From assembly GCA_041650835.1 (NCBI GenBank), contig JBAZKL010000001.1, positions 15,449 through 79,448 on the forward strand: a DNA stretch of 64,000 nt, written 5' to 3'. The notes below the pieces were generated by a model. The model searched no databases and was not told the origin of the DNA. It saw nothing but the letters and a program-made list of their open reading frames with translations. Source of the stretch: Candidatus Omnitrophota bacterium. GTDB taxonomy: Bacteria > Omnitrophota > Gorgyraeia > Gygaellales > Profunditerraquicolaceae. Positions 19,493-33,503 of the stretch are shown here, piece after piece (positions within the stretch are counted from its first letter, which is position 1; each line of letters begins with the position of its first letter). The translations under genes and the position numbers were made by a program.

Positions 19493-19912
19493 TTATTTCA
19501 GCAGGACCTCTGAATTAGCGGCACCGTCATTTAATATAACCCTGTCTTTCTTGATCTCAACGACGGTCTTTTCCCCCACTCTTTCCCCAACACCAACAAC
19601 AATATCATCGATTATTGCCCGCGGAGACTTTTCATCCCAGATTATGCCGGTCAGCCCCGTCAAGCCGCCGTTCTTTTGAGAGAAAATATTCCTTTTATAT
19701 GATGAAAAACTTGTTTTCTTAGCGCGCCGCTCAACCGCGGATATTATTCTATCTGATCTTACATTTGCGAGAGGATAGCTATCTTGCTCCTTTACGGGAA
19801 TTCCCGCATTATCTTTTATGGTTGCGGTAATTCCATACATTAAGCTCAATATACCGGCTGTTCCCAGAATAATCAAGATTAATAGTTTTTTATCCTTCAT
19901 ATTATTATCCAC
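19493..19912 (-). CDS. PilP/GspC-like pilus assembly lipoprotein (tentative)
   Basis: N-terminal TM anchor, C-terminal beta-rich segment GLTGIIWDEKSPRAIIDDIVVGVGERVGEKTVVEIKKDRVILNDG resembling PilP/GspC HR domain; last gene of pil cluster. Confidence 0.4.
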   Translation of the reverse strand: MDNNMKDKKLLILIILGTAGILSLMYGITATIKDNAGIPVKEQDSYPLANVRSDRIISAVERRAKKTSFSSYKRNIFSQKNGGLTGLTGIIWDEKSPRAIIDDIVVGVGERVGEKTVVEIKKDRVILNDGAANSEVLLK

Positions 19913-19954
19913 CTGCCTCTATTCCCTCACGTGGAGCTTAGCGAATGAGTGCCT

Positions 19955-20494
19955 TTAGCTCTTTTCTTTTCCCAATATATATAGCTCTAAGACCATATTC
20001 ACTTTGAGCCTATTCTCACCTTCCGTATTTAGGGCTGCCTCAAAGCTTTTAACCTTGATCACGCTATTCTTGAGATCCGCCAACGAACCCAGAAAACCAG
20101 CGAATTTCTGTTCAGGCGCCGCCATGATTATCTCAAGCGGCAATATCTTGTAAAACCATTGCGGCCCGCTCGTTATCTCCCCGGGCTTTATTGAAATAAA
20201 AGTGACCCCTTTTAATTTTCCGTGCCGGGTCAATTCAGCGATCGCGATCGATACCTCATCTTCCGTAATAAGCGCCCTCTTAACCCCGGAAATCCCGGTT
20301 TGCTCTATGGCGTAGCGCGCGCTTTCTAAATATTTCTCCAAGGCTTTATTTTCTAAAGAGCTCAGCGTGATCTTTTTTATTAACGGGCCGTAAAAAACCG
20401 CGTGTATCACAATTACGGCCAACGCGGCCGCGATCGATATAATTAAAGCCATTCTTCTTTGGATAAATTCAAATGCGCTCATTTTATTGATCAA
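19955..20494 (-). CDS. pilO: PilO-like type IV pilus assembly protein
   Basis: Single N-terminal TM plus coiled region plus PilO-like C-terminus, 179 aa, directly after pilMN. Confidence 0.55.
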   Translation of the reverse strand: MINKMSAFEFIQRRMALIISIAAALAVIVIHAVFYGPLIKKITLSSLENKALEKYLESARYAIEQTGISGVKRALITEDEVSIAIAELTRHGKLKGVTFISIKPGEITSGPQWFYKILPLEIIMAAPEQKFAGFLGSLADLKNSVIKVKSFEAALNTEGENRLKVNMVLELYILGKEKS

Positions 20495-21980
20495 CCTTGC
20501 ACTTCAATTCAAATTCGATCCCCGGGACATCTCCCCTATTCCTGCTCTCAACCAATTTAACGTTATTCAACAACCCTTTTTCTAACGCGAGGATGAACTG
20601 GGAGAGTATTTGCTCGCCATCCAAAGCCGGAACAACCCCATCCATAGTAATTAAATTATCTTCCAATTTAAGCAGCCTGATATATGCTTTATCAGGGATC
20701 AGGTTGGAAAGTTCGACAAAAACGTCTTCCCACCGCGGCTCATCAACCAGTATCGTTGACGCCAGGTTCTGCTCTTCGAGGCGCTTTAACTGCGGTTGTA
20801 AGCTTGAGAGCTCCAGATTTGCCGTAGAAATTCCCTTCTCGAAATTTGCCAGTTGTATCCTCATGCCTATATAACTGAAGACGGAAATAAGACCGATCGC
20901 TATTACGACGCTTTCAATCGTTATCCTCTGAAGCAATCTCCCCGCTTTTTCCTTTATTACAACAGGAAGAAGATTAAGCCCTTTTCCTTCGCTTAAAGCC
21001 GCGCCTATCGCAAGCGCGAAACGATGCGTTTGACTGGCGCTGCCGGCTATTACCTCTTTTGAGGCCTTCAAGGGCGTCAACGAATCTCCAAGCCTGGCTT
21101 CTACTCCCAATCGTTGGATCAAATATTTAATTATATCCCCCAACAGTTGCGCCTCTCCTGATACGATAACCGAATCGATCTTGCGGCCTACACCCTCTTC
21201 CTTATAATAATCAAAGCTTTTCTCTATTTCCACTGCCAATTGCTCCAAGGCAATGAGCTCCTGAGAAAGGATCTGCGTTGAGTCCGGGTCATCGCTCCTG
21301 CCGGAAGGCAAAGTATTCCTTAAAGCTTTTGTAAAATCATCGCCTTTAACAGGTATCTTACGGTTAAATACAAAATCTTTCCCCTTACAGACGATAAGCT
21401 CCACGCCGAATTCTCCGATATCAACGAAGCACTGCGTTTGCCCTTGCCTGCAGTAAAGGCTCTCCGCCGATCTCAACAGCGCGTAAGAAAAAGGCACAAA
21501 CGAAGCCGGTTTCACGCCGGCCTTTTCCAGTAAGGCTAAATATTTATTCACTGTTTGCTCGGGGCTCACCGCAACTATCAGATCGTATTTCCTGACGCCG
21601 TTATCAACAGACTCTCCTCGTATCTCAAAATCGAAGATAAACTGCTCTATCGAGAACGGAAAATAGTTTTTCGACTCTAATTTTACTCCTTCACACAATT
21701 CCGCCTTGGGCATATACGGGGCCGTCACTTTTCTGAGCACGGTTTGACTGCAATTAACACTCGCCACAACCGTGGCTTTATGCATATCAATGTCCTTCAT
21801 TAATTCCTTAAGAGCGCCTATCACCTCCTCTTCACAGGCGCCGGCATCACTGCCGGCATGTTTGACCTCTTTTAGATCGAGCCGAAGAAGATGCAAGCCA
21901 TCATCCTTCTTTTCGAATTGAGCCGCCTTTATTGAAGAAGGACTGATATCCAAGCCGATAATCAGGTTTTTTTTAAACAT
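20484..21980 (-). CDS. pilMN: PilM-PilN fusion (actin-like ATPase domain fused to PilN-type TM/periplasmic domain)
   Basis: N-terminal 350 aa PilM-like (IIGLDISPSSIKAAQF...). Then TM helix IESVVIAIGLISVFSYIGM and PilN-like C-terminal domain. 498 aa total. Confidence 0.65.
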   Translation of the reverse strand: MFKKNLIIGLDISPSSIKAAQFEKKDDGLHLLRLDLKEVKHAGSDAGACEEEVIGALKELMKDIDMHKATVVASVNCSQTVLRKVTAPYMPKAELCEGVKLESKNYFPFSIEQFIFDFEIRGESVDNGVRKYDLIVAVSPEQTVNKYLALLEKAGVKPASFVPFSYALLRSAESLYCRQGQTQCFVDIGEFGVELIVCKGKDFVFNRKIPVKGDDFTKALRNTLPSGRSDDPDSTQILSQELIALEQLAVEIEKSFDYYKEEGVGRKIDSVIVSGEAQLLGDIIKYLIQRLGVEARLGDSLTPLKASKEVIAGSASQTHRFALAIGAALSEGKGLNLLPVVIKEKAGRLLQRITIESVVIAIGLISVFSYIGMRIQLANFEKGISTANLELSSLQPQLKRLEEQNLASTILVDEPRWEDVFVELSNLIPDKAYIRLLKLEDNLITMDGVVPALDGEQILSQFILALEKGLLNNVKLVESRNRGDVPGIEFELKCKVDQ

Positions 21981-22023
21981 TTTTCTTATGCCCGCTTGCG
22001 TAAACGCCTAAAACCATAACCGG

Positions 22024-22866
22024 TTAAATAGCCGGGACTATCTCTTTCCAATCTATCTGATCATATGCCCTTGACAATCCGTCAGCTACCGTTACCCTGC
22101 CGTCATGGACCGCCACGGTCCGGGAGATCTTCCTGTTCATAACGCTCATTGTCCCTGTTGAGGTGATCTTTGCTCCGATAGCCTCTACGGAGGCGACCCT
22201 GACGCCGGAGTTCGCGGTAACCCTGGTAACGCTCAAGCGCAGATATTTGACGTCGGCCGCAGCGGAAAATTCATTGGTTACATCAGAGGAGCTATTATTG
22301 TTTTTCGTAACCACGGTTGTATACGTTATATTATCGGCAGATACCTGCCATGTATAATCCCTGGGCGCCCGCGAGGAAGCTTTCGCCGGCACTAAAAAAC
22401 GGACCTTATTTATCGTCAGTTTACGCGGAAAAGTAACAGTAACGTATTGCGGTTTCTTGTCCGAGGGCTTCGAAGCTGATTGCCAATACGTCGTATCCGA
22501 ATTGTCTGTGACTCGGTCTGCCCCATGGTTTGCGGCACTTGATGATGCCGTCACAGCGCTGTCGTGAGCCGCCAGGCACCAGTCCCATCTTTCTACTTTC
22601 AAGGTATAACTGCCCGCTCCTAAATTCTCCGTCGTTGAGGAAGTTATCCAATCTTCCCCCTTACCGCCTGACGCCAGGGGAGTCATAAGGTTCCATATAG
22701 CCTTCTGGACCCCGGCTTCAGCAAGCCATAACGCCTTGGAGCCGGCGATACCATACCCCGCCCCCCTTGTTTGAACGCTGGTCATATACAAAAATGAAGC
22801 TGTAATAACGGTTAAAGTTATCATAATGATAAACGTAAGTATAAGCACCATGCCTTTTCTGTTCAC
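22024..22866 (-). CDS. PilX/GspK-like minor pilin with C-terminal discoidin (F5/8 type C)-like domain
   Basis: N-terminal hydrophobic pilin-like helix GMVLILTFIIMITLTVITASF. C-terminal region TDNSDTTYWQSASKPSDKKPQYVTVTFPRKLTINKVRF is typical of discoidin/galactose-binding-like domains. ATGA overlap with upstream minor pilin. Confidence 0.55.
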   Translation of the reverse strand: MNRKGMVLILTFIIMITLTVITASFLYMTSVQTRGAGYGIAGSKALWLAEAGVQKAIWNLMTPLASGGKGEDWITSSTTENLGAGSYTLKVERWDWCLAAHDSAVTASSSAANHGADRVTDNSDTTYWQSASKPSDKKPQYVTVTFPRKLTINKVRFLVPAKASSRAPRDYTWQVSADNITYTTVVTKNNNSSSDVTNEFSAAADVKYLRLSVTRVTANSGVRVASVEAIGAKITSTGTMSVMNRKISRTVAVHDGRVTVADGLSRAYDQIDWKEIVPAI

Positions 22867-23384
22867 AGATTCCTTGGCCTGATCGCCGTCCTTGACCTTA
22901 TGGTTTCATCGTTTCTCTTCAGGCTTAGATCAATATTGATCAAATTACCGCTTATTGACAGATCTGAAGCGGGGGGAGCAACGACATCGGTCATTTTAAT
23001 ATCTCCCGAACCATAGGTAAACTTCCCGGCGATGCCTCCGGTAAGTGAGGCTTTGCGCAATTGATAAGCGCTTTTATTAAATAACGGGGGATACGGATCA
23101 GCCGCGTTATACAGGTAATAAATATAATAACCGGCCTCCCCCTGATAAAACCGTATCTCATTATTCGAGCACTGGACAGCGCTTACATCCCGTAAATCCC
23201 GGACTATCTCCTCGACCCCCCGGTCAAGATTGATATCAATACCTGCCCTGGCTTCCTCACTTGACCAGCTCAATAATACCGCTCTCAGGACAGAAACAAG
23301 GACTACCGTCAAAACAACCAGCATTGAAACCGTGATCATCAATTCCATTAATGTCAGGCCGCGTCTTACACTCTGAGTAACCAT
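22863..23384 (-). CDS. minor (pseudo)pilin, PilW/GspJ-like
   Basis: Start at MVTQSVRRGLTLMELMITVSML gives prepilin motif G-LTLMEL with Glu+5; 1-nt TGATG overlap with upstream gene. Confidence 0.6.
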   Translation of the reverse strand: MVTQSVRRGLTLMELMITVSMLVVLTVVLVSVLRAVLLSWSSEEARAGIDINLDRGVEEIVRDLRDVSAVQCSNNEIRFYQGEAGYYIYYLYNAADPYPPLFNKSAYQLRKASLTGGIAGKFTYGSGDIKMTDVVAPPASDLSISGNLINIDLSLKRNDETIRSRTAIRPRNL

Positions 23385-23746
23385 CAGTAATTCGCGACAA
23401 GCGTTGTCAAAGTTACATTCGCCTGTCCGCCTTTCGTGTACCAATAAACCGTTACATCCACCTGTTTAAGGCTGGTATGAAGGAGCTTTACCGCTACCTG
23501 CCTCTGAAAGGCAGAAAATCCGGGCACCGCAGATCTATCTTCATTGACAACAGCCGCGTAGAATTGCTCCTTAATACCTTCCATTTTCTCCTGGGTGAGG
23601 TTTTGGGCCAGATCAACGCTCTCAAGATCGCCGGAAGTGACTATCCCCGAGCTGAAAGCTCCCGCGATCGACAATACGCCCACGCTCAAGAGAAGAGTAG
23701 CGATAAGTACTTCCAAGAGTGTAAATCCGCTTTTCTTTCGCTTCAT
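23384..23746 (-). CDS. minor (pseudo)pilin, PilV/GspI-like
   Basis: MKRKKSGFTLLEVLIATLLLSVGVL class-III prepilin signal; 120 aa. Confidence 0.65.
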   Translation of the reverse strand: MKRKKSGFTLLEVLIATLLLSVGVLSIAGAFSSGIVTSGDLESVDLAQNLTQEKMEGIKEQFYAAVVNEDRSAVPGFSAFQRQVAVKLLHTSLKQVDVTVYWYTKGGQANVTLTTLVANY

Positions 23747-23804
23747 GGCAAATAGGATTTAGCCTTTCCGTCAAGATCTCGCCGTTATAAAATACAGCCA
23801 AAGG

Positions 23805-24263
23805 CTACGGTTGCGTGTCTTTTGTCGCGCCGTTAGTAACGTAGATACAGCTCGAGCCGTTAGTTTCCGTAATAACGCCCGCCGTCGAAATTGCCGCGCT
23901 TCCGTTACCGCCGACCCCGACGGAATAAATAACGTAATACTTAACCGGAGTTGCTCCATCAGTGGCATATCCGTATTGAGTTGAACTGTTAAATGGATCG
24001 GTCAAGGCAGTACCGATAATGTTAGGAGTAGCGCCGGTAAGGGAAGTTTCCCATGTGGCTGAAGCTGCCGGGTACGTATTATTGTTATGAATATAATAAC
24101 TTTCAACGGCAGACTGCAGGGTCCTCAACTCGCCCTTTGCCTGCGCGATCCTGCCTTCATCCTGCATACCTCTAAAACGAGGCAAAGCAATACCGACCAA
24201 TATGGAAATAACGGCAATTACGATCAAAAGCTCCATAATAGTAAAACCTCTTTTTTGCAGCAT
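23805..24263 (-). CDS. type IV pilin / major pseudopilin (PilA/GspG-like)
   Basis: MLQKRGFTIMELLIVIAVISILVGIALP (G-1, F+1, E+5), 152 aa, Ser/Thr/Gly-rich variable region. Confidence 0.8.
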   Translation of the reverse strand: MLQKRGFTIMELLIVIAVISILVGIALPRFRGMQDEGRIAQAKGELRTLQSAVESYYIHNNNTYPAASATWETSLTGATPNIIGTALTDPFNSSTQYGYATDGATPVKYYVIYSVGVGGNGSAAISTAGVITETNGSSCIYVTNGATKDTQP

Positions 24264-24335
24264 TTCTCCCTCCTTTTGAGCACTGATTGTTTTTTTTTAA
24301 GCGTCTCCCGACGCGCATTCAAGGATTTTAAAGGC

Positions 24336-25550
24336 TTAACGCTTCAGCGTTTTTACCATATCAAAAATAGGCATAAGCATCGATGCCATGATCATGCCGA
24401 CCATAGACCCCATAACAACTAAAAATAACGGTTCTATAAGCGTGGTTAATTTCTTGATCGTGTAGCCTACGCTGATATCATAAAAATCAGCAATTTTGTT
24501 AAGCATCTCGGCTAAATTTCCGCTCTCCTCGCCTGCGGCGACCATCTGAACCACATTCGCGGGGAATTCACCGCTTATTTTCATCGATTGAGCCATGCGG
24601 TCGCCTTTTTCAACGCTTTTGCGCATCTGCGCAACAGCACGCACCATTATTTCATTCTCGATCACCTCCTTGCTAAGGTTTAAAGCTTCCAAAATAGAGA
24701 GCCCGCTTCCTAAGAGCGTAGCTAATGTCCTGGTAAAGCGTGAAATATATACTTCCCGGTATAACGGGCCGATAATGATCATACGCAACTTTAATCTATC
24801 GCGCAAAAACTTGCCCCCCGGCGTCCTCACATAATAACGTAATGCCGCCAGGAAACCGACAAAAGAGGCGGCGAATAAATACCAGTAGCTTTTTAAAGCC
24901 ATGCCTGTTTTATATACGATCAAGGTAGGGACAGGCAGCTTGAGCCCCGCCCTTAAATATATCTCGGAAAACTGAGGCATAATAAAGGTAACGACAAACA
25001 GTGTAACCGCGACTCCCGCGCAAAGCAGTATCAGGGGATAAAAAAGAGCTCCCTGGATCTTTTCCTTGATGTCATGCTGCTGTTCAAAGAAAAGTGCGTA
25101 GCGCTTCAAAACAACATCGAGTTTACCGCTTTTTTCCCCTGAATTTATCATATTGACGAAAAGCTTGCTAAATATGCCCGGGTACATCGCAAAAGCCTCG
25201 GAGAGGCGGCGCCCCGATTCAACCTGCCTGACAACGGTATCAACCGCCTCTTTTAAGATCTTATTTTCTATCTGCCTGGAAAGCGTATTCAGGCTCGCCA
25301 GGATGGTTATACCGGCATTAATAAGATTAGACAGCTGAAAATAGAACATGAGCATCTCCGTAGGACCGATCCATTGGAATTTATCAAGTATGCTTCCGGC
25401 AATTCCCGCTACAGGAGCTTTAGCCACAAATGTAGTCATGCAGCCCTTCTCATGAAGTTCAGCGATAAGCGCTTGCTTATTAACAGCATCCATAATACCT
25501 TTAACGGATCTACCGGCTGGATCTCTGGCTTTGTAAATGTAAAACGGCAT
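24336..25550 (-). CDS. pilC: type IV pilus platform protein PilC (GspF family, two T2SS-F domains)
   Basis: Start at MPFYIYKA preceded by AAGGAGAGG-4 nt; duplicated GspF-type domains, C-terminal VVMGSMVGMIMASMLMPIFDM. Confidence 0.8.
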   Translation of the reverse strand: MPFYIYKARDPAGRSVKGIMDAVNKQALIAELHEKGCMTTFVAKAPVAGIAGSILDKFQWIGPTEMLMFYFQLSNLINAGITILASLNTLSRQIENKILKEAVDTVVRQVESGRRLSEAFAMYPGIFSKLFVNMINSGEKSGKLDVVLKRYALFFEQQHDIKEKIQGALFYPLILLCAGVAVTLFVVTFIMPQFSEIYLRAGLKLPVPTLIVYKTGMALKSYWYLFAASFVGFLAALRYYVRTPGGKFLRDRLKLRMIIIGPLYREVYISRFTRTLATLLGSGLSILEALNLSKEVIENEIMVRAVAQMRKSVEKGDRMAQSMKISGEFPANVVQMVAAGEESGNLAEMLNKIADFYDISVGYTIKKLTTLIEPLFLVVMGSMVGMIMASMLMPIFDMVKTLKR

Positions 25551-25687
25551 CAAACCTCTCCTTACGAACATAATGACATTACTACGAAAAACACTCATAA
25601 ACATATCCTGCTCTTTAATTTATCGGCATTATATCCTATTTACTTTAATAAAATTATCAGGCAGAGGGGGGACCTGTGTCCTTATAA

Positions 25688-25725
25688 AACAAAAAAGGCC
25701 GTGATCAATACAATCGATCACAGCC
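25688..25725 (-). terminator. Rho-independent terminator after the giant gene
   Basis: 12-bp stem GGCUGUGAUCGA/UUGAUCACGGCC (two G-U), 5-nt loop, followed on minus strand by UUUUUUGUUUU. Confidence 0.6.
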
Positions 25726-25760
25726 TTCTTTTATCGCTATTCCCTGAAACTAACCCTTAG

Positions 25761-28700
25761 TTATGTAGCTAATTTAGAATCAACAAGCACCAACGCTTCT
25801 TTTATTTCCACCGGCAACTCATCGCACGGCTCATTAGCTTCCTGCCACTGGCAGATCTCCACTAATGCTACCACTAAATCATTCAAATAAGTATTAACCT
25901 CTCCTTTTTGCATACACGCGGCCATAAACTCTTTGATCCGCTGGCCGGAAACCACGATACCGCTGTCAGCCATATTCTTGATCTGCATCATTTCATCAGC
26001 AAGATTCATCTTATCCAAAGCCTCCCGGCTTAATACCGGAAGGGCAAAATTCAAACCGTTAAAACTACCCATAGGCTTAATTACCAGCGTCCTGTCAATG
26101 CCGGCGGCAAAATCGATACCACCTTTTTTCCCCGGCGCCTGATCAGGCTTTGCCATAGGCGAGGCGGAAGTTGGCCCTTGATCTATTTGTTCAATCACTG
26201 CACCGTCAGTTCTTGCTTCAGCCTCAAACTGCTCAAGAGACGCCTGCGGGTCAACTCTAAGAAGATCTAACACCTTCCGGCGTTGTTCTTCAGGCAAACG
26301 GCCTAAGAGCGGATACAAAACATTAAACTGTTTATCCGCCATCTGCTTTAACTCATTCTGCAATAGGTCTTTAGCTGCCTGGACCAGATCAGCATCATTG
26401 ATCTTTTGCGCGACTGCCGCGACATAGACATCAATATCTTGAATGCTGGTTTGAGGAACAAGCGCGATTTCTCCACGTATCGCCGCGCGCACCTTACGGG
26501 CCTGCTCCTGAAGAAGGCTTTTTTGCAGTATTACTTGCTTTTCTTCTGCGGAAAGGGCCGGGTTTACCGCGTTCTGATATGCCGTTTCCGCGTTTTTAAG
26601 AAGCTCTTCTTTCTTAGCATCAGGCAAAACTGAATTTGCGATCAAGCCGTCGATCAAGGCTTTGCTCTGCTCAACATCATCGTTTGCCCTACCGCTGCCG
26701 GGAGCATAGCTTAACAATTCATTGAGCCAATCATTGATCTCATTAACTTCCCGCATAGCCCTTATTTGGCGCAGAGCATCCTTAATAACGGTTTTTTCCG
26801 CTGCAGTCAGTGACTCTCCATCTTCGCCGTCTAAAGCTTCCAACGCCAGATCATAGGCAGCCAATATATCTTCCGGCCGCGAAGAGCTGGACATTTCCTG
26901 AGCGAGATCTTTTATTACCTCAGGAGTATTTTCCGGAATAGCGACGTCTCTTAAACCTGTTTCTGTCGCAGGTAAGTTAGACTGAGCAATTCTTGCTTCT
27001 TGCGCTGCGGCTTTTGCCGCCTGTCGCGCTTTAGCTTGTTCAATCGCCGCGAGCGTTGCCGCGCGAATGACCTCCTCTATAGCAGGCCTGCTGGCGATCG
27101 CAGGCCCCTTGTTCCCATGCAAGAGCTGTAAAGCATTCGTCTGCGCCTGCAATATCTGCTCTTGCGTCCTATTCCTGGTAAACATATTATTAACAATTCT
27201 TTTGATCTCTTTATTCGCTTTAAGTTTATTTAATTCCTTCATCCAATTCCGGGGAGTTGAAATTTTTGCGGCATTTTCTTCATCAGCACCCGGCAATTCA
27301 GCCTTGCGCTTCTGGGCGGCCTCATCAATTGCTTTCAATATCGCATCCGCGGCCTCTTGCGTCAACAACCCATCCGCAACATCCCTTTTTAACAACGCTT
27401 CCGCTGAATCCCTGATCTTTGTTACATCCTCAACTGTCCGGGCTTCATTAATTCCTTCTATCATTGTTAAAGCAAGCGCAGGTAATCCTTCTTCCATTAA
27501 CATAGCCTTACGATTCTCTGCAGCCTCATCAATTGCTTTCAATATCGCATCAGCCGCCTCTTGCGTCAGCAACCCGTCAGCCACGTCCCTTTTCAGTAAC
27601 GTTGCCGCGGAATCCCTGATCCTCGCCACATCCTCAATTGTCGGGGCTTCATTAATTCCCTGGATCATCGTTTGCGCAAGAGAAGGTAATCCTTTCTGGA
27701 TGGCCCCCCCCTCATTTTCTTCCTGCTTTTTTTCCTGGTTCCACAATCCAAGGCCTCTCCAAAAATCGGAAACAACGGCAATACCTGCCCGGAGTATAGC
27801 TTTAAAAGGATTGACCGTTACCGTATTATTAGTTACATCACTTACCGTACGCACCGCCTGATAGAAAACTTCTCTCAAAAGCCCTGTCTTCTCACCCGCC
27901 AAAGCCCAAACGCTTGAGCCGCGCCTGGCATGTAAATAAGAGAAAAGCGCGTTGCTCCTGTTCTTAGCCGCTCCTAAACGGGGATCGTTAAGCAAAAGGT
28001 CCAATATCTTTTCGACCTTTTGCGTTTGAGTCAAGCCGTGGTCACGATAAATTCCCAAAACATCCTGCAAAATAAGATTAAAGGTCCTGCCATCAACATT
28101 CAGGTACCCTTTATAGTGCCTGGTAAAATAATTCATGAAGCGCGCCAAAGCCTGCGGATCAGCGGGATTAGTTAAACGCTCTCCAAATATTGATATCAAA
28201 TTCCGCTTTACCGCGGCAGTATTCCATATCGCCTCAAGCAACGACTTTTCCAAATCATTGGTCACGCCATTGACCTTCCTGATGTTATGGGTCAAACAAT
28301 ACTCCCTTACGATATGCCAAACGGTAGGCGGCTTGATCGAGATATTTCCTGTTTGCGCTTCAAAATAAGCCTTAAACTCTGATGCTCGAGCAGGCCCGAG
28401 TAAACGCAGGAGCTCGTCTTTAAATCCCTGGTCCTGCCACAATGCCGCGATAAACTGGTCCTGCCAGCCGCTTACGTTTATTTGGGAAAGCGTGACATCT
28501 CCTATGTATTGCTTCAGCGCGTCGGCTACCGCGTGGTTTGACATGCGGGAAACATCGACTAACTCGACTAATTTTGCCAAATCCATCCCTCCGGCATTAC
28601 CGGAGAAAACATAAGCGACCGTTTCCTGGGTTTGCGCCGCGCTTATTCCCTTACTGGTCAAAAACTGCTCCAATAAGACCTTATTATTCAACGCGGTATA

Positions 28701-31700
28701 ATGCTGCCCCAGCAAAGTGCCAAGGTCAGCGGTTGCGGCCTTAAACTCCAGTTGCGCGAAAGTCGTATCTTCCAAAAATTTCCGAAAAGCATTGGCGATC
28801 CTGACATCAGGACTGTTAATGAATTCCGCTAATTTGCTGGTATTGAGCGTTCCCGGAGTAGGGGCCAATTGGCTGATAAGATTACTTGCGTCAGTTACGC
28901 CGGCATCGCTTAAGGCTCTCGCCAATGTCCCCGAACTGATCTTAGCAAGTATATTCGCCTTTTGCGTTGCCAGAAAATTAAGCAAAGTATCCGTTGTAGA
29001 TGCTCCGGGAGCAGGCACAAACCATGAAAGGCCTGCCAAGAGCGTAGCAGGAATTAACTTCATCGCCAGAGGGATAATGATAAAGCTTGTCAAACCAAAT
29101 ACGATCCCTCCTACCGCTAAAGCAAATACCACCTTCGTCGCGATTTCTTTTGTTTTAACGGAATTATATGCCTTAGTATCTATTACGTCAGCGCGGGTTA
29201 TTTTAACTTGCGCGCGTGCCGCCGCGACCTCGTCGTTTGTCAGGGCAAGGTTTTGCATTACTTTACTAACCGAGCCCCAGAGTTCTTTCCTTAAAATCTC
29301 GTCACTCTTTGTCTCATGAGAAAATTTGAACAAAGTTATAGATTTCTTACTCTGCTGTTCCTGCTCCTGCAGCTCCTGATAATCCAGTATCCTGCCGATC
29401 AATGCCAAAGCCTTACCTTTATCAGTGCCGACAGCCTGTAATTCTTCAATAGTCCTGGCAACATCCAGCTTCCTGGCTAAGGTCGGCTCTAACTTATTAT
29501 CCAAGTACGTGCGCCCTTGTGTTGACCGCCCCAGAAGCCCCATATTATCGCGCAGCTCAGCCTGGATCTTACTTTGATTAACTTCAGTATTAGCGCGCAG
29601 CGCCGTAATGATCAATCCTGCCGCGATCGCCGGAACAGCAACAGGCCAACCTGCTAACCCGAGGCTGACGATTTTAACTATACCGAATATGACTGCCCCG
29701 TAACCTACCATGCTTATGCCGGAGCTGATAATGAACGGAGAGGTCAGCGGCCCGAGGATACGGCTGCGCTGCATTGCGGTAATCACATTATTCCACCAAC
29801 CCGCGATAGCGGGAGTTTTGATCGCGACATCCTCTCCTTCTGACAGATCCACGGAAAGCGCGATATCATTTGTCGTCAAAGCAGCAGTATCTCGATTGCT
29901 CCACTGGACTTTCATGGCGCGCGCCGCCTGCAAAAGATTAGACCCCAGTACGTCACGGTCTTTATTCTTGCCGAAAATATCAAGGAGCCGCTGCGTAAAA
30001 GTAAGATCATCAACCTTATTTTGTATGTACTCGACGAAAAGCTGTTTTATTTCTTCCAGTTGCGTCCCGGTAACCGCAGTTACCGTTGCGGCCTTGCCCG
30101 TTAATTGCCCATAGACATTTTCCTGTATAGTATCGGCAAAAGCAGCGAGCATATCGATAAACTGTTCAGGTGATTCCATATTCCTCAAAAGGCCTACGGC
30201 GACACTGCGGTCTCCCAGCATATTCTCTAATTCCGTGATCAAATCATTCAATTCTTTTCCGGCTGTGTCGCTATTCCAATTGTTGATTATGGATACTAAT
30301 CTTTTTTGATATTCGGCAGCAAATCTTTCCCTCAGGGGCGCCGCCCGAAACCGGGATAACGCCCTTTTCATGAGCTTTGACCAGAAACCGCCTGTCTGCA
30401 AATACGCGTTAAAACGTTCTTCCGCAAATGCTTGAGCGATACTTTTGACTTTGTGGATGCCATTGAGCACGGTAGCTTTTACGGTACTTCCTCCCGGGCC
30501 GTTATTACCATTATCATCTTCTGTCTTTTTAGCCGCTGCTAAAACCTCTTCGTTATGTTTTACAATAACCGGCTCATCGACACCTTTTTGCTTGCTTTCC
30601 ACCAATCCGCTCAAACCATCTCTGGTAGAAGGAGATAACGTAACCCCGAGATTGTCTTCTATCCTTTTTACCACTTCTGCGGCACCAGGCGCCGCTGACT
30701 TCATGAGAGATAAACCTTCAGTGACCTTTTGCTCTACCGGCTGCTCGACGATCTGAGATAATTTATCGACCAAATTCCCGATCTCATTCATCATACCTGT
30801 CGCTAATTCCGCGGGAGCTAATTCTCCTTCGGCAGGCTGATTCGTCGCGTCAATCAACAAGCCCTGTTTATGTATTTCGCTTAAGGTAACTTTGATCTTT
30901 TCTAAGGCTTCCTTTTTCTCTGCCTGGCTCACCCCTGGCTCCATAATTTGCTCAAGCATCTTCTTGATCTCTTGGAGAGGCTTACCGAAGGCTTCAGGAA
31001 AATTCTGAACTTCTTTTTTAGATAAATAACCGGCTATAATTTCCAGAATTTGTTTGACGGTAACGATAAAATCTTCTCCCGCTCGCGGGGCTTCTACGGC
31101 AGGCTGCATATAAGTAGGCATCGCGGCGATAGTGACGCCGGTTGCATCGTCAGTGACATTGACCACATCAAGGACGTCCCGCACCGCGTCATGCGCGAGC
31201 TTTTGCGCTGCTTCCGGAGGGACACCCTGCGTTTGGAGATCCTCGACTAAACCGTCGATCAGATCATAATAATTTATCGCTCCCCGGACAAAACAGAGCT
31301 GCAGCCAAAAAGCTTCCAATTGATCGCCAGGCGCCTGCGCGCGCATAATTCCATCCGCGGAATGGGGGTCCTTAAAAGGATGCTTCAAAAACCCGGTGTT
31401 TTCCGATGTTGAAAGGCTGGGGACCGCGTATTTTGCCGCGTAGCTGTTCTTGATCGCTTCTCTTACCTCCTGCCGCCATTGCTCGATGTTGAGCGCCGGC
31501 AAGATCTGCTGCTTTATGCCTGTTTCCTGCACTAAGCCATGAATTTGGATCTGCGGATTTATCATTTTCGTTACCACTGCCAGAAACGGAGGAAAAGTGC
31601 AATAACCGCTGTCCACGAACATTACTTTTTCTGCGCCTGCTATCCCGAGGGATTTCAACTCTCCCTGAATAAGTTCGATCTTATCCCTGAACTGTTTATC

Positions 31701-33503
31701 ATTGAGCATTTTGTCTTTAATAAACTGTTCGAACTTAAGATAGAACTCTTCGCGGGAGTCGGTCGTATTCGCTATTGACTTGATCGCGTCCCTGATCTCG
31801 CTGTAAAAATCCTTAAAGGTCGCGTTCCTGCCGCTGATATAATACAGGAAAGCGTCAACATCTCCCTCGATAATAAGATTTAAAGTATTATGCGCCGAGG
31901 CAAGTAACCCCGAATCACGGGGGATCCCGACGACCCTAAAGTCGCCATTCTGATAAAAAAACATCTCTTCGCCGTTCCAGGCCGCCATGGCTGATGCGTA
32001 ATGCTGCTGACTGGAGCCGTTAACGATCCTGTTGACCAATTCAGTCACCTGGTTCTCAACGTGCGCTTTTTGCTGAGGGTGTTTGGCGATCAAAATATCC
32101 GCGAGTTCCCTGACCGCTTTCATATGGATATCATTCAATAACCGTTCCCTTTCCGCTAAACTCATACTCCCGTCTTTTACTTTTTCCCTCAAGGCGACCA
32201 TTTCCTTGGCATATCCGGATATGACCTGCCAATAGACCTTCTGCAATTCCTCCTGGGTAATAACCTCATCCTCTTGTTTTATGATTTCCGGCAATTCTAT
32301 CGGGCTTCCCGCTGTTCTTGCGGGTTGAGGATCATCTGCTGCCGGCGGAATTGAGCCGCGCACTTCGTCACCGGGAGTTATTACCGCGGGGCCATTCCCG
32401 CCCATCCACTCCATGGGTACCGTATTCGGAAGATCAACGCGTAAAGGACTGGCTCCCTGAAGCCCGTTTATCGGGACATTTTTCGTGACATCGATGCCTC
32501 CGCTGAAATAGCTGCGGATGACCTGGCCGGTGGGAGTATAAACTGGCTCTTTAATATTATATTCGCCTTCAGAAAAAGATTTTTTGTAGGCATCAAAATA
32601 AGTATTCTTACTCCAACTATCTTTGGAAGTCAAATTACTCAAGTCTTTTTTATCGATTCGCGCGGCATAATTTGAATTCTGGCCGGCAAAGCGGATCTTG
32701 AACCAGCGCGATAACACAAGCGAATAATACACCTGGCGTAACGCGGCGTAGCGCTTGGAAGCATTAACCTCTTTGGTCAATTTCGGGATAATGATCTGAC
32801 GGATAAGCTCTGAGGAATATTCATTCAATACCTTCGCGCGCTCATCCTTAAAATTATACTGCGCGGAATCCTTTAAATAATCCTGCTCCAGCATGACCTT
32901 GAGCGTAGCCTTATAAATATAGGCGCTGTCTTGGGCTTCACGGACAATGATCTCATTCGGAACGATCCAGGGACGGGTCAGGGTAGGAATATTGACATTC
33001 TCCATCCCATAGATCTCAGCGGCTTTCTTATACAATTTATCCCAATACTGCTTACCTTCCTGCGTCTGGGGAGAGGTAAACAGAGCGGTATCTTTCTTAA
33101 GCTGCAGGTCAGCTTCAAGCATGATCTTGCCGACATCGGTATTCTCAAGGTCTTTATCTATGATCTGGTCGGAGGCGTCAGGACGCAAATTGACCCAGAA
33201 AGTGCTGTTCGGAAGGCTTAAGCCTGTCAAAAAATAATCTAAAAGGACTTTAGTCGTATCTTGAAGCTGCCTGCCGGCGGCATCTTTACTATCCCCCTTG
33301 TCTAAAAGGACCCGGATATTGTCGTTTTGCGCGTCATAAGAGAAATACCGCAAGTGCATCGGCCGGTATTTATCGATTACAAGATTAGAATTCATCTTGT
33401 TCAAATAACCGCCGAAATTAAGTTCCGCGGCGACCTGCGCAAAGCCTAATTGCTGAAACAATAAACTAATACTTATAACTAATGACAGAATTCGACGGGC
33501 CAT
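25761..33503 (-). CDS. giant (2,580 aa) secreted/membrane-anchored alpha-helical protein of unknown function
   Basis: Single uninterrupted ORF. N-terminal signal peptide MARRILSLVISISLLFQQLGFAQVAA. Two hydrophobic hairpins mid-protein (FIISSGISMVGYGAVIFGIVKIVSLGLAGWPVAVPAIAAGLIITAL and VVFALAVGGIVFGLTSFIIIPLAMKLIPATLLAGLSWFVPA). Tandem 68-aa repeats. No catalytic motifs recognised. Confidence 0.75.
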   Translation of the reverse strand: MARRILSLVISISLLFQQLGFAQVAAELNFGGYLNKMNSNLVIDKYRPMHLRYFSYDAQNDNIRVLLDKGDSKDAAGRQLQDTTKVLLDYFLTGLSLPNSTFWVNLRPDASDQIIDKDLENTDVGKIMLEADLQLKKDTALFTSPQTQEGKQYWDKLYKKAAEIYGMENVNIPTLTRPWIVPNEIIVREAQDSAYIYKATLKVMLEQDYLKDSAQYNFKDERAKVLNEYSSELIRQIIIPKLTKEVNASKRYAALRQVYYSLVLSRWFKIRFAGQNSNYAARIDKKDLSNLTSKDSWSKNTYFDAYKKSFSEGEYNIKEPVYTPTGQVIRSYFSGGIDVTKNVPINGLQGASPLRVDLPNTVPMEWMGGNGPAVITPGDEVRGSIPPAADDPQPARTAGSPIELPEIIKQEDEVITQEELQKVYWQVISGYAKEMVALREKVKDGSMSLAERERLLNDIHMKAVRELADILIAKHPQQKAHVENQVTELVNRIVNGSSQQHYASAMAAWNGEEMFFYQNGDFRVVGIPRDSGLLASAHNTLNLIIEGDVDAFLYYISGRNATFKDFYSEIRDAIKSIANTTDSREEFYLKFEQFIKDKMLNDKQFRDKIELIQGELKSLGIAGAEKVMFVDSGYCTFPPFLAVVTKMINPQIQIHGLVQETGIKQQILPALNIEQWRQEVREAIKNSYAAKYAVPSLSTSENTGFLKHPFKDPHSADGIMRAQAPGDQLEAFWLQLCFVRGAINYYDLIDGLVEDLQTQGVPPEAAQKLAHDAVRDVLDVVNVTDDATGVTIAAMPTYMQPAVEAPRAGEDFIVTVKQILEIIAGYLSKKEVQNFPEAFGKPLQEIKKMLEQIMEPGVSQAEKKEALEKIKVTLSEIHKQGLLIDATNQPAEGELAPAELATGMMNEIGNLVDKLSQIVEQPVEQKVTEGLSLMKSAAPGAAEVVKRIEDNLGVTLSPSTRDGLSGLVESKQKGVDEPVIVKHNEEVLAAAKKTEDDNGNNGPGGSTVKATVLNGIHKVKSIAQAFAEERFNAYLQTGGFWSKLMKRALSRFRAAPLRERFAAEYQKRLVSIINNWNSDTAGKELNDLITELENMLGDRSVAVGLLRNMESPEQFIDMLAAFADTIQENVYGQLTGKAATVTAVTGTQLEEIKQLFVEYIQNKVDDLTFTQRLLDIFGKNKDRDVLGSNLLQAARAMKVQWSNRDTAALTTNDIALSVDLSEGEDVAIKTPAIAGWWNNVITAMQRSRILGPLTSPFIISSGISMVGYGAVIFGIVKIVSLGLAGWPVAVPAIAAGLIITALRANTEVNQSKIQAELRDNMGLLGRSTQGRTYLDNKLEPTLARKLDVARTIEELQAVGTDKGKALALIGRILDYQELQEQEQQSKKSITLFKFSHETKSDEILRKELWGSVSKVMQNLALTNDEVAAARAQVKITRADVIDTKAYNSVKTKEIATKVVFALAVGGIVFGLTSFIIIPLAMKLIPATLLAGLSWFVPAPGASTTDTLLNFLATQKANILAKISSGTLARALSDAGVTDASNLISQLAPTPGTLNTSKLAEFINSPDVRIANAFRKFLEDTTFAQLEFKAATADLGTLLGQHYTALNNKVLLEQFLTSKGISAAQTQETVAYVFSGNAGGMDLAKLVELVDVSRMSNHAVADALKQYIGDVTLSQINVSGWQDQFIAALWQDQGFKDELLRLLGPARASEFKAYFEAQTGNISIKPPTVWHIVREYCLTHNIRKVNGVTNDLEKSLLEAIWNTAAVKRNLISIFGERLTNPADPQALARFMNYFTRHYKGYLNVDGRTFNLILQDVLGIYRDHGLTQTQKVEKILDLLLNDPRLGAAKNRSNALFSYLHARRGSSVWALAGEKTGLLREVFYQAVRTVSDVTNNTVTVNPFKAILRAGIAVVSDFWRGLGLWNQEKKQEENEGGAIQKGLPSLAQTMIQGINEAPTIEDVARIRDSAATLLKRDVADGLLTQEAADAILKAIDEAAENRKAMLMEEGLPALALTMIEGINEARTVEDVTKIRDSAEALLKRDVADGLLTQEAADAILKAIDEAAQKRKAELPGADEENAAKISTPRNWMKELNKLKANKEIKRIVNNMFTRNRTQEQILQAQTNALQLLHGNKGPAIASRPAIEEVIRAATLAAIEQAKARQAAKAAAQEARIAQSNLPATETGLRDVAIPENTPEVIKDLAQEMSSSSRPEDILAAYDLALEALDGEDGESLTAAEKTVIKDALRQIRAMREVNEINDWLNELLSYAPGSGRANDDVEQSKALIDGLIANSVLPDAKKEELLKNAETAYQNAVNPALSAEEKQVILQKSLLQEQARKVRAAIRGEIALVPQTSIQDIDVYVAAVAQKINDADLVQAAKDLLQNELKQMADKQFNVLYPLLGRLPEEQRRKVLDLLRVDPQASLEQFEAEARTDGAVIEQIDQGPTSASPMAKPDQAPGKKGGIDFAAGIDRTLVIKPMGSFNGLNFALPVLSREALDKMNLADEMMQIKNMADSGIVVSGQRIKEFMAACMQKGEVNTYLNDLVVALVEICQWQEANEPCDELPVEIKEALVLVDSKLAT
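27321..27728. repeat. Tandem 204-nt duplication inside giant gene (encodes 2 x 68-aa repeat)
   Basis: CCTCATCAATTGCTTTCAATATCGCATC... recurs at 27321 and 27525. Encoded repeats begin GLPSLAQTMIQGINEAPTIEDV... and GLPALALTMIEGINEARTVEDV... Confidence 0.8.

What the first reader, a model, noticed from the sequence alone, without database searches (positions are those of the whole stretch)
19493..33503. Giant 2,580-aa signal-peptide/4-TM helical protein directly upstream of a secretin-less, ATPase-less type IV pilus-like cluster
Seen in sequence: a single 7.7 kb ORF (25761-33503, minus strand) with an N-terminal signal peptide, two mid-protein hydrophobic hairpins (so both large halves face the same compartment), tandem 68-aa repeats and no catalytic motif I recognise. 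It ends in its own terminator (25688-25725). Then come pilC (own SD), a class-III-signal major pilin and three translationally coupled minor pilins (TGATG and ATGA overlaps). The last minor pilin carries a discoidin-like domain. After that are a PilM-PilN fusion, PilO and a PilP-like gene.

There is no PilQ secretin and no PilB/PilT ATPase in the 64 kb, although the cell is clearly diderm (TolC, RlpA, ExbBD). The only secretion ATPase is an orphan CpaF-type gene at 15.8 kb.

Inference: this is a surface-filament or attachment module, and the giant protein is a candidate for its cargo, anchor or contact partner. Giant proteins next to pilus genes are a recurring theme in small-celled host- or partner-associated lineages, but this arrangement (giant helical 4-TM protein, T4P with a lectin-like tip pilin and a PilMN fusion, no secretin) is not a described system as far as I know.
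Basis: partly seen in the sequence, partly recalled or inferred. Interest (0 to 1): 0.75.

Follow-up and report, generated by a model that had tools for sequence, protein, structure and literature searches.

The report
Capped giant protein beside displaced pilus operon
In this Omnitrophota genome a 2,580-residue exported membrane protein sits next to pilus/secretion genes, but it is one member of a huge undescribed protein family that is not otherwise found near such genes, and it occupies the slot where relatives keep the pilus ATPase gene.

Summary
There is a 2,580-aa ORF with a signal-peptide-like N-terminus, two hydrophobic hairpins, a 2x68-aa repeat and its own strong terminator. It is followed by gspF/pilC, four pilins (the last with an F5/8-C domain), a PilM-PilN fusion, PilO and a 135-140-aa gene. 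The 64 kb holds no secretin and no PilB/PilT.

The functional link is not supported. In 26 of 26 informative loci from more distant Omnitrophota the same cluster starts with response regulator(s) plus a GspE/PilB-type ATPase (directly upstream of gspF in 25), and no giant gene is nearby. "ATPase-less" is therefore a lineage-specific rearrangement. The giant gene fills the vacated slot and is bracketed by terminator-like hairpins.

The giant protein belongs to a very large Omnitrophota family (7,433 representative clusters). Members share a signal peptide, a 320-aa N-terminal "cap" with no match in the structure libraries searched, and a 120-aa helical C-terminal "cap". Between the caps lies a variable cargo, often glycolytic enzymes. 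None of 78 other family loci (1.17 Mb) has pil genes within 10 kb.

The adjacency is most likely incidental. The capped family is the more interesting result.

The parts
25761..33503 (-). Giant gene, 2,580 aa. A monocistronic-looking member of the Omnitrophota 'N-cap/C-cap' protein family.
   Evidence: ORF. Exact protein on an 868-kb Omnitrophota contig. dN/dS 0.11 against the ortholog in L003.
33438..33503 (-). Signal-peptide-like N-terminus (aa 1-22): MARR, then ILSLVISISLLF, then QQLGFA|Q.
   Evidence: Hydrophobicity. The same n/h/c layout and an FQQxGFAQ-like motif occur in 187-192 of 221 family members. In the AF2 models it forms a helix joined to the domain only by a low-confidence stretch. 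Cleavage is inferred and was not tested.
32484..33437 (-). N-cap domain (aa 23-340), the family-defining module.
30513..32264 (-). Recurrent cargo module (aa ~414-997). Conserved motifs: SSQQHYAxAMAAWNGEEM, FPRD, YISGxNxTF, FVDSGYxTFP, GLVQE, HPF, PVIxKHN.
   Evidence: Two copies in P0121, four hits in the 2,879-aa neighbouring gene in L004, one in P0004. No Pfam or PDB sequence hit. Function unknown.
29589..29735 (-). Hydrophobic hairpin 1 (aa 1257-1305).
   Evidence: Kyte-Doolittle 19-mer means up to 1.95. Conserved in P0002 and P0003.
29022..29147 (-). Hydrophobic hairpin 2 (aa 1453-1494).
   Evidence: Kyte-Doolittle mean up to 2.5. The double hairpin is seen only in the three orthologs among 221 family members.
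27285..27692 (-). Tandem 68-aa repeat x2 (aa 1938-2073), with a weak DUF2680-like match.
   Evidence: 204-nt period, 83% nt identity. Pfam DUF2680 6.4e-7.
25764..26126 (-). C-cap (aa ~2460-2580): a GGIDF motif followed by a four-helix bundle ending ...EALVLVDS.
25691..25731 (-). Intrinsic-terminator-like hairpin between the giant gene and pilC/gspF.
   Evidence: 19-pair stem, 3-nt loop, TTTTTTGTTTT tail.
33686..33703 (-). Terminator-like hairpin between macB and the giant gene. A promoter-like site lies at 33593-33565.
   Evidence: These are consensus scans only, so the evidence is weak.
24336..25604 (-). GspF/PilC platform protein.
   Evidence: Pfam T2SSF 4.9e-60. NCBIfam GspF 339 bits and PilC 325 bits, both below their cut-offs.
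23805..24263 (-). Major (pseudo)pilin, 152 aa, with a class III signal.
   Evidence: N_methyl and T2SSG. GspG and PilA N-terminal hits. dN/dS 0.05.
23384..23746 (-). Minor pilin 1 (110-120 aa).
   Evidence: N_methyl 2.3e-7. TGATG overlap with the next gene.
22863..23384 (-). Minor pilin 2 (173 aa).
   Evidence: Only a sub-threshold prepilin-motif hit (16.0 vs 16.3 bits) and a weak Verru_Chthon cassette C hit; called a pilin mainly from its position. Gene call.
22024..22866 (-). GspK/PilX-like tip-type minor pilin with an F5/8 type C (discoidin) domain.
   Evidence: PilX_N and F5_F8_type_C 8.6e-16. Matches of 50-56% identity over about 270 aa, spanning the discoidin region, occur in canonical loci L088, L091 and L159, which have no giant gene.
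20484..21980 (-). PilM-PilN fusion, the same architecture as GspL.
   Evidence: PilM_2 7e-25 and PilN. The fusion is conserved across Omnitrophota at 22-86% identity, 109 proteins.
19955..20482 (-). PilO/GspM-like protein.
   Evidence: Pfam PilO 5e-6.
19493..19900 (-). Conserved 135-140-aa last gene of the cluster: an N-terminal TM segment plus a C-terminal beta-rich domain. It sits where PilP or GspC would.
   Evidence: Found in 53 of 83 related loci at 34-44% identity. No Pfam, NCBIfam or PDB sequence hit. The PilP/GspC-HR assignment rests on position and on reading the sequence by eye.

Best explanation
Two separate units lie side by side.

(1) Genes 19.5-25.6 kb are the Omnitrophota-wide type IV filament (T2SS/T4P-like) cluster. 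Its canonical order is response regulator(s), gspE/pilB ATPase, gspF, major pilin, two minor pilins, a GspK/PilX-like tip pilin, a PilM-PilN fusion (GspL-like), PilO (GspM-like) and a 140-aa protein. In this lineage a rearrangement removed the regulator-ATPase head from the locus. The remaining eight genes are still under purifying selection. I infer from this that they work with an ATPase, and a secretin if one is used, encoded elsewhere. The inferred product is a short filament or pseudopilus tipped by a discoidin-domain pilin.

(2) The 7.7-kb gene now in the vacated slot appears to be its own transcription unit. It belongs to a huge Omnitrophota-specific family. Members have a Sec-type signal peptide, a conserved 320-aa N-cap with no match in the structure libraries searched, a variable cargo and a conserved 120-aa helical C-cap.

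Inferred topology of this member: it is exported by Sec and the signal peptide is cut near GFA|Q. The two very hydrophobic hairpins then hold it in the inner membrane, with both large halves on the periplasmic side. Its cargo includes a 580-aa module of unknown function that recurs in other family members.

The adjacency to the pil genes is most likely incidental. It is probably not a cargo or anchor relationship.
For: The canonical cluster.
- Of the 26 related loci (PilMN 33-53% identical) with at least 6.5 kb upstream, 26 carry a ~560-aa MshEN+T2SSE ATPase. It lies directly before gspF in 25 and usually follows response regulator(s).
- None of the 84 such loci (0.76 Mb) contains the N-cap or the C-cap.

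The family.
- The N-cap matches 7,433 representative clusters, 5,583 of them below 1e-30. In the 150 best matches it lies at the N-terminus.
- 184/222 members have the C-cap at the extreme C-terminus.
- Several paralogs occur per genome.
- The middle 2,040 aa of this protein is found only in three orthologs plus part of P0121.

No association with pil genes.
- 0 of 78 non-orthologous family loci (1.17 Mb, median 15.6 kb) have pilC, pilin, pilMN or pilO.
- Their recurrent neighbours look like housekeeping genes by eye (e.g. valS-, leuA-, hisG-like; not scanned against Pfam), with no partner recurring in more than 9 of the loci.

Transcriptional insulation.
- A strong terminator-like hairpin lies at 25731-25691 and another at 33703-33686.

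Selection.
- dN/dS is 0.05-0.27 for all pil genes and 0.11 for the giant gene. All ORFs are intact.

The nearby ATPase.
- The FlaI/TadA-like ATPase at 15.8 kb is missing from that position in two relatives.
Against: - The giant-pilC adjacency is kept in every relative where it can be seen. In one of them an extra efflux operon has been inserted upstream, so this junction has outlasted some local rearrangement.
- Published work reports that much larger Omnitrophota giant genes tend to lie next to T2SS/Tad-like loci (10.1101/2023.11.21.568195; 10.64898/2026.06.07.730766). A functional theme linking long exported proteins and filament machines therefore cannot be dismissed.
- The terminator scan is consensus-based, and read-through is possible.
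- I could not search the rest of this genome for gspE, pilT, the secretin or pilD, so 'ATPase in trans' is an inference from purifying selection.
- Signal-peptide cleavage and membrane topology are predictions from a hydrophobicity calculation. No dedicated predictor was available.
Confidence: 0.6

Rival explanations
1. The giant protein is a dedicated partner of the adjacent filament machine, for example an inner-membrane anchor, a periplasmic scaffold or a displayed cargo. The two were brought together by selection for co-inheritance.
For: - The adjacency is conserved in all close relatives sampled, even where the upstream side was remodelled.
- Both are envelope-located by prediction.
- This ortholog group is the only one among 221 family members with the double hairpin, so it could have a specialised membrane role.
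- Literature precedent exists for giant genes next to T2SS-like loci (10.1101/2023.11.21.568195).
Against: - The relatives with the adjacency are close (giant protein 77-78% identical) and keep general synteny, so the conservation says little.
- 26/26 more distant clusters work without such a neighbour.
- 0/78 family loci are near pil genes.
- A terminator-like hairpin lies between the two units.
- Discoidin-pilin homologs exist in canonical loci without a giant gene.
Confidence: 0.2
2. The N-cap/C-cap proteins as a class are the substrates of the conserved Omnitrophota T2SS-like machine. In this model the N-cap, folded in the periplasm after Sec export, is the recognition module. The adjacency in this window would be a rare genomic trace of that relationship.
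For: - The family-wide Sec-type signal peptide fits two-step secretion.
- The cap is conserved at 55-75% identity, against 33-53% for PilMN over the sampled loci. That suggests interaction with a conserved machine.
- Both the family and the cluster are widespread in the phylum.
- The cluster's gene order is collinear with gspE-F-G-...-K-L-M.
Against: - There is no co-localisation at all in 78 + 84 loci.
- This particular member has two strongly hydrophobic hairpins, which should trap it in the inner membrane.
- Many cargos are enzymes that need cytoplasmic cofactors, such as PGK, GAPDH, enolase and radical SAM enzymes. That is hard to square with secretion.
- No secretin was seen in cis.
Confidence: 0.12
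3. The pil cluster is a decaying remnant that lost its ATPase, and the giant gene is unrelated.
For: No ATPase of the GspE/PilB type and no secretin in 64 kb.
Against: All eight genes are intact in the window and in L003, and the partial contigs of two further relatives show the corresponding genes. dN/dS is 0.05-0.27 at dS around 0.7-1.7. Translational coupling between the pilin genes is kept.
Confidence: 0.05

Closest known systems
Type II secretion system operon (gspC-M) and its pseudopilus
   Same: - The gene order of the canonical Omnitrophota cluster is E-F-G-(minor pilins)-K-like-L-like-M-like.
- The PilM-PilN fusion has the domain architecture of GspL: a cytoplasmic actin-like domain, one TM segment and a periplasmic ferredoxin-like domain (own knowledge of GspL and PilM/PilN structures).
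- The best NCBIfam hit of the platform protein is GspF, and the major pilin hits GspG and T2SSG.
   Different: - No GspD secretin in cis, either here or in the relatives.
- No gspE in this window.
- All NCBIfam scores are below the equivalog cut-offs.
- Pfam calls PilM, PilN and PilO rather than T2SSL and T2SSM.
- Only three minor pilins.
- No substrate is known.
Type IVa pilus (PilA, PilBCD, PilMNOPQ, PilT)
   Same: A class III-signal pilin, a PilC-type platform, PilM/N/O homologs and a PilX-type minor pilin. The literature counts such clusters in Omnitrophota as T4aP (PMC10066038).
   Different: PilM and PilN are fused. There is no PilQ after the PilP-position gene. There is no PilT in any of the loci inspected, and no PilB in this window.
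Omnitrophota giant genes with adjacent T2SS/Tad-like loci ('Archaeovorins' and dockerin-type giants; 10.1101/2023.11.21.568195, PMC10066038, 10.64898/2026.06.07.730766)
   Same: The same phylum. Long proteins bearing a signal peptide and TM segments, with few annotated domains. Secretion or pilus genes lie close by.
   Different: - Those proteins are 10-150 kaa. They are preceded by a locus of more than 10 genes that includes gspD, gspE, gspF, rcpC and a PPIase, and they are followed by pilZ genes.
- Here the protein is 2.6 kaa. The cluster lies downstream and lacks D and E, and none of those accessory genes was seen.
- The N-cap/C-cap signature is not mentioned in those papers.
Cargo proteins with constant sorting modules, such as T9SS substrates (signal peptide plus a conserved C-terminal domain) and polymorphic toxin families. 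This is an analogy only.
   Same: A constant N-terminal signal and constant terminal domain(s) flank a highly variable, modular cargo. Many paralogs occur per genome.
   Different: - The cargos here are mostly central-metabolism enzymes rather than toxins or hydrolases.
- No sorting machinery has been identified.
PVC-type pilus-like cassettes (Verru_Chthon cassette proteins; Akkermansia Amuc_1101 PilM-like family)
   Same: Weak NCBIfam hits: the major pilin to cassette protein D, minor pilin 2 to cassette protein C, and PilMN to Amuc_1101_fam at 3e-17.
   Different: All hits are far below the family cut-offs. I did not analyse this further.

Membership tests
Type II secretion system | GspD secretin | tested here: not met
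   No Secretin Pfam hit in the scanned ORFs of the 64-kb window, nor in the gene lists of related loci L084-L086 and L167. It may be encoded elsewhere, which I could not test.
Type II secretion system | GspE ATPase adjacent to GspF | tested here: not met
   Absent from the window. Present in 26/26 informative related loci, directly upstream of gspF in 25.
Type II secretion system | GspF platform, GspG major pseudopilin and GspK-type minor pseudopilin | tested here: inconclusive
   GspF 339 bits against a cut-off of 424. GspG 45 bits against 88.85. GspK E=0.0077. Pfam T2SSF is clear and T2SSG is at threshold.
Type II secretion system | GspL (PilM-like plus PilN-like in one chain), GspM and GspC | tested here: inconclusive
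   The fused architecture is met. However, Pfam assigns PilM_2, PilN and PilO, and the last gene has no GspC or PilP hit.
Type IVa pilus | PilB extension ATPase and PilT retraction ATPase | tested here: not met
   None in the window. The only ATPase is of FlaI/TadA type (pilT_fam 54 bits against 319; PilB 45 bits against 676).
Type IVa pilus | Separate PilM, PilN, PilO and PilP followed by the PilQ secretin | tested here: not met
   PilM and PilN are fused. No secretin follows the last gene.
Type IVa pilus | Class III-signal major pilin and a PilC platform | tested here: met
   N_methyl 2.3e-6 and T2SSF 4.9e-60.
Omnitrophota N-cap/C-cap family (defined here) | Sec-type signal peptide with an FQQxGFAQ-like c-region, followed by the ~320-aa N-cap at the N-terminus | tested here: met
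   aa 1-340 are 57-70% identical in the pairwise comparisons made, and 61-94% identical in the 150 best representative matches.
Omnitrophota N-cap/C-cap family (defined here) | C-cap (GGIDF motif plus a four-helix bundle ending ...EALVxxDS) at the extreme C-terminus | tested here: met
   aa 2440-2578 are 41-44% identical to P0036 and P0014. 184/222 members have it.
RTX / type I secretion adhesin | No N-terminal signal peptide, GGxGxD nonapeptide repeats, a C-terminal T1SS signal and an adjacent HlyB-type ABC exporter | tested here: not met
   A signal peptide is present. There is no RTX/HemolysinCabind Pfam hit. The adjacent ABC protein is of MacB type. It is separated from the giant gene by another operon in one relative.
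Autotransporter / type V adhesin | C-terminal beta-barrel translocator domain | tested here: not met
   No autotransporter Pfam hit. The C-terminus is predicted as a helical bundle.
Giant-gene/T2SS-like locus of West-Roberts et al. | A giant gene (>10 kaa) preceded by a locus of more than 10 genes with gspD/E/F, rcpC and a PPIase, and followed by pilZ genes | tested here: not met
   The protein is 2.6 kaa. The upstream genes are TolC, an MFP and MacB. No rcpC, Rotamase or PilZ hit in the scanned ORFs of the window.

The most novel reading that the evidence does not exclude
The N-cap and C-cap could be the address labels of an Omnitrophota-specific export or display pathway. The N-cap is led by a signal peptide, has no match in the structure libraries searched, and is 55-75% identical across more than 7,000 protein clusters. 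The pathway would move a polymorphic cargo set out of the cytoplasm, including arrays of lower-glycolysis enzymes (PGK, GAPDH, TPI, enolase in single polypeptides). The cargo would go to the periplasm, the cell surface or a prey cell. The phylum-wide E-F-G-K-L-M filament machine would be the outer step of that pathway. The window's giant protein would then be a membrane-anchored member parked next to its machine.
Probability: 0.12. Interest if true: 0.85.

Novelty: new variant of a known kind. Interest (0 to 1): 0.45.

Why it matters
For the finding as posed, the result is deflationary. The 'secretin-less, ATPase-less pilus with a giant partner' is a rearranged copy of a cluster that is ordinary within Omnitrophota. 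The giant gene is a neighbour by accident of rearrangement as far as the evidence goes.

Two results have wider use.

1. The canonical Omnitrophota filament cluster is now defined. Its order is regulator(s), E, F, G, two minor pilins, a K-like pilin of variable size (some with a discoidin domain), a PilM-N fusion, PilO and a 140-aa protein. No secretin was seen in cis. This gives a reference for reading pil and gsp genes in this uncultured, probably host-dependent phylum.

2. The giant protein reveals a very large protein family that I did not find described in Pfam, NCBIfam, the structure libraries available or the papers searched. Its caps are constant and its cargo is variable. A Sec-type signal peptide is routinely placed in front of enzymes that normally work in the cytoplasm. 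If those proteins really leave the cytoplasm, that bears directly on how these nanobacteria feed on their hosts or prey. If they do not, the 'signal peptide' and caps must have another role, such as membrane tethering or assembly of enzyme arrays. That would itself be new.

Tried and rejected
- **Known families for the giant protein.** Pfam on the whole protein, NCBIfam on the two caps and the PDB by sequence on the whole protein gave only noise-level hits: DUF2680 on the 68-aa repeat, PRESAN, GA and urease gamma.
- **N-cap profile against the PDB**: nothing.
- **Mid-module profile against the PDB**: nothing.
- **C-cap fold search**: only generic or designed helical bundles, which is uninformative.
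- **MacAB-TolC upstream as the exporter of the giant protein.** Rejected. It is separated from the giant gene by another operon in one relative, and a MacB match occurs in only 3 of the 78 other family loci.
- **The FlaI/TadA-like ATPase at 15.8 kb as the cluster's motor.** Rejected as a conserved partner, because it is absent from that position in two relatives.
- **Mobile-element signatures around the giant gene.** No flanking repeats, no tRNA and no transposase were found.
- **A conserved neighbour of N-cap genes.** None was found. The recurrent neighbours look like housekeeping genes and two-component regulators by eye.
- **The 140-aa gene as PilP or GspC.** There is no sequence support.

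Full report
**Source and observation**

The window comes from a Candidatus Omnitrophota MAG. The giant protein is found exactly on an 868-kb ENA contig and on a 17-kb Logan contig, and NCBI names it WC695_00220.

The ORF 25761-33503(-) encodes 2,580 aa. A Kyte-Doolittle scan finds three hydrophobic regions:
- aa 5-27, with the layout of a Sec signal peptide (MARR / ILSLVISISLLF / QQLGFA|Q);
- aa 1257-1305;
- aa 1453-1494.

The last two are each long enough for a helical hairpin, so both large halves would face the same side of the membrane.

The 68-aa repeat is present twice, at aa 1938-2073. At DNA level the period is 204 nt and the copies are 83% identical. A 19-bp-stem hairpin with a T-run at 25731-25691 separates the stop codon from pilC.

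Downstream, Pfam and NCBIfam support the following genes:
- T2SSF;
- a GspG/PilA-like pilin;
- a second N_methyl pilin;
- a third small protein with only a sub-threshold prepilin motif;
- a PilX_N/GspK-like pilin carrying an F5/8 type C domain;
- a single 498-aa protein with PilM and PilN domains;
- PilO;
- a 135-140-aa protein with no family hit.

The minor2/discoidin-pilin junction is GTGA, not ATGA. The TGATG junction is correct.

Pfam scans of the substantial ORFs of the window found no secretin, no PilB/PilT and no prepilin peptidase (four further genes rest on the precomputed gene calls). A GspE query found nothing else in the window. The only secretion ATPase, at 15844-17199, is of FlaI/TadA type.

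**What the giant protein is**

A search of 5.8 billion proteins found three full-length copies: the protein itself and two relatives 77-78% identical. It also found about 600 proteins that match only 13-20% of the query.

Pairwise comparison shows two shared pieces:
- the first ~336-345 residues, at 57-70% identity;
- the last ~120-140 residues, at 41-44% identity.

The 2,040 residues in between are found only in the three orthologs and, in part, in P0121.

An exhaustive HMMER search with aa 1-345 against 1.84 billion 50%-identity representatives gave 7,433 hits, 5,583 of them below 1e-30. In the 150 best, the match lies at the N-terminus, in proteins of 410 to 4,375 aa. In GTDB species representatives the two most conserved peptides of the domain matched 414 confirmed stretches. 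Nearly all are in Omnitrophota MAGs, with three or four per genome among the 80 loci kept.

Other properties of the family:
- Of 222 members in hand, 184 carry the C-terminal piece at the extreme C-terminus.
- 187 of 221 have the same positively charged n-region, hydrophobic h-region and FQQxGFAQ-like motif.
- Only 24 have any internal strongly hydrophobic 19-mer. The double hairpin is confined to the three orthologs.
- A natural 537-aa member (P0173) consists of the N-terminal piece, a linker and the C-terminal piece only.

I call the two constant pieces the N-cap and the C-cap.

The variable middles of the paralogs carry Pfam domains of cytoplasmic-type enzymes (precomputed column). Examples are phosphoglycerate kinase, enolase, GAPDH, triose-phosphate isomerase, phosphomannomutase, phosphoglycerate mutase, PEP synthase/PPDK, transaldolase, transketolase, nucleotide kinases, Nudix, radical SAM and GNAT. 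Several of these can occur in one chain.

This window's member carries none of those. It does have a ~580-aa module (aa 414-997) with sharply conserved motifs. That module recurs twice in P0121, four times in the neighbouring 2,879-aa gene in L004, and once in P0004. It has no Pfam or PDB sequence match.

**Structure**

Neither cap is in Pfam or NCBIfam. I found no description of them in the three Omnitrophota papers that deal with long proteins, nor in four full-text searches.

**What the pil cluster is**

The PilM-PilN fusion is conserved across Omnitrophota: 109 proteins at 22-86% identity, most of them 38-53%.

Gene lists for four more distant relatives on long contigs all show the same order:
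1. response regulator(s), sometimes with a histidine kinase;
2. a 560-564-aa MshEN+T2SSE ATPase;
3. T2SSF;
4. a pilin;
5. two small pilin-like genes;
6. a 358-533-aa PilX_N/T2SSK-like protein;
7. the PilM-N fusion;
8. PilO;
9. a 135-141-aa protein.

A metagenome scan added 80 loci. Of the 25 loci with at least 6.5 kb upstream (three of them from the contig look-ups), all 25 have the GspE-type ATPase. It lies directly upstream of gspF in 24. The closest outgroup, L167, makes it 26 of 26. No N-cap or C-cap match occurs anywhere in these 84 loci, which total 0.76 Mb. None of the four inspected gene lists contains a secretin.

The order E-F-G-...-K-L(=PilM+N)-M(=PilO) is collinear with a gsp operon. 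That GspL has the architecture of a PilM-PilN fusion is my own knowledge of those structures. However, all NCBIfam scores are below the equivalog cut-offs, and Pfam prefers the Pil names. I therefore file the cluster as a type IV filament system intermediate between T2SS and T4aP, and not as a member of either.

The last gene is conserved in 53 of 83 loci. It has a TM segment plus a beta-rich C-terminal domain. Its PilP/GspC identity is positional only.

Discoidin-pilin homologs, 50-56% identical over about 270 aa that span the discoidin region, occur in canonical loci with an ATPase and no giant gene.

**The junction**

In this window and its close relatives the giant gene sits exactly where the regulator-ATPase pair sits elsewhere. 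Upstream of the giant gene lies a TolC-MFP-MacB operon. In one relative a further efflux operon has been inserted between macB and the giant gene.

The giant gene is flanked by terminator-like hairpins on both sides and has a promoter-like site 60 nt upstream. No repeats, tRNA or transposase mark an insertion.

Compared with the ortholog locus L003, the giant gene and all eight pil genes are intact, with dN/dS of 0.05-0.27. The cluster is therefore in use, which implies an ATPase encoded elsewhere. That is an inference.

The FlaI/TadA-like ATPase at 15.8 kb is not that partner in any conserved sense. It is missing from the corresponding position in two relatives.

**Test of the proposed link**

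Of 78 non-orthologous loci holding an N-cap gene (1.17 Mb, median 15.6 kb), none has pilC, a pilin, pilMN or pilO. Their recurrent neighbours look like ordinary housekeeping genes and two-component regulators by eye, and none recurs in more than 9 of the loci.

As a rough estimate, assume a genome of 1.5-2 Mb (an assumption, not measured here) with one 9-kb filament cluster. A random gene then has about a 1-2% chance of lying within 10 kb of that cluster. With several family paralogs per genome, one lineage showing such an adjacency is unremarkable.

The adjacency is conserved only among genomes whose giant proteins are 77-78% identical and which also keep general synteny.

**Conclusion**

The most likely reading, at about 0.6, is two independent units brought together when the head of the filament operon was displaced. 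A specific partnership remains possible at about 0.2. It would gain weight from the unique double hairpin of this ortholog group and from published reports that much larger Omnitrophota giant genes lie beside T2SS/Tad-like loci. Those loci differ in composition and position.

A broader idea is that the capped family as a whole is the substrate set of the filament machine. It is attractive because of the family-wide signal peptide and the very high conservation of the N-cap. It has no positional support, however, and it conflicts with the cytoplasmic nature of much of the cargo.

**Limits**

- There was no genome-wide search for gspE, pilT, the secretin or pilD.
- No dedicated signal-peptide or topology predictor was available.
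- There is no structure for aa 345-2440.
- The AlphaFold database was not searchable.
- The terminator and promoter calls are consensus scans.

Noticed in passing
Proteins P0004-P0120, e.g. P0023 (3,600 aa), P0035, P0036, P0038: Many N-cap/C-cap family members place a Sec-type signal peptide in front of chains of glycolytic enzymes. Single polypeptides carry PGK, GAPDH, TPI and enolase, and others carry PMM, iPGM, PPDK, transaldolase or transketolase. Whether these are the organisms' only copies, and on which side of the membrane they act, is unknown.
   Followed up: partly
L004 1342-17296 (GCA_015233405.1, JADFXT010000008.1): Three N-cap genes lie in tandem: 2,879 aa, 2,272 aa, and a third cut off by the contig end. 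The ~580-aa module of the window's giant protein (aa 414-997) matches four times in the first gene and twice in the second.
   Followed up: partly
P0173 (537 aa): A natural minimal family member made of signal peptide, N-cap, a ~70-aa linker and C-cap, with no cargo. It would be useful as a handle for experiments on the caps.
   Followed up: partly
window 33791-33869: Two 35-nt direct repeats (94% identical, 44-nt spacing) lie in the macB-giant intergenic region. Each contains a GC-rich hairpin (GGGTGCTGCGCAGAAAGTGCGCACCC). They look like REP elements or tandem terminators.
   Followed up: no
window 15844-17199 (-): A stand-alone FlaI/TadA-type secretion ATPase (451 aa), with no platform or pilin gene beside it. 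It is absent from the corresponding position in two related genomes, so it is a variable element of this neighbourhood.
   Followed up: partly
L084-L086, L167 and 20+ metagenome loci: The canonical Omnitrophota filament cluster is headed by one to four stand-alone response-regulator genes, sometimes with a Cache/PAS histidine kinase upstream. PilZ and GGDEF genes are often nearby. This suggests two-component or c-di-GMP control of the ATPase.
   Followed up: no
L084-L086, L167; L088, L091, L159: The GspK/PilX-like pilin varies widely in size: 280 aa in the window and 358-533 aa in the four inspected gene lists. Only some appear to carry the discoidin domain. The tip pilin looks like the variable, possibly target-specific part of an otherwise constant machine.
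   Followed up: partly
window 53522-55741 (-): A 739-aa ORF with no Pfam hit at E<=1e-4. By eye it is a multi-pass membrane domain fused to a C-terminal spermidine-synthase-like methyltransferase fold. It lies in the stretch with the highest AT skew of the window (0.28).
   Followed up: no
window 38096-38344 (-) (L001 5160-5408): A MazE-type antitoxin-like gene (82 aa) lies immediately upstream of the tolC-MFP-macB operon, with its stop codon overlapping the tolC start by one base. No toxin gene was called next to it. The arrangement is conserved in the relatives.
   Followed up: no
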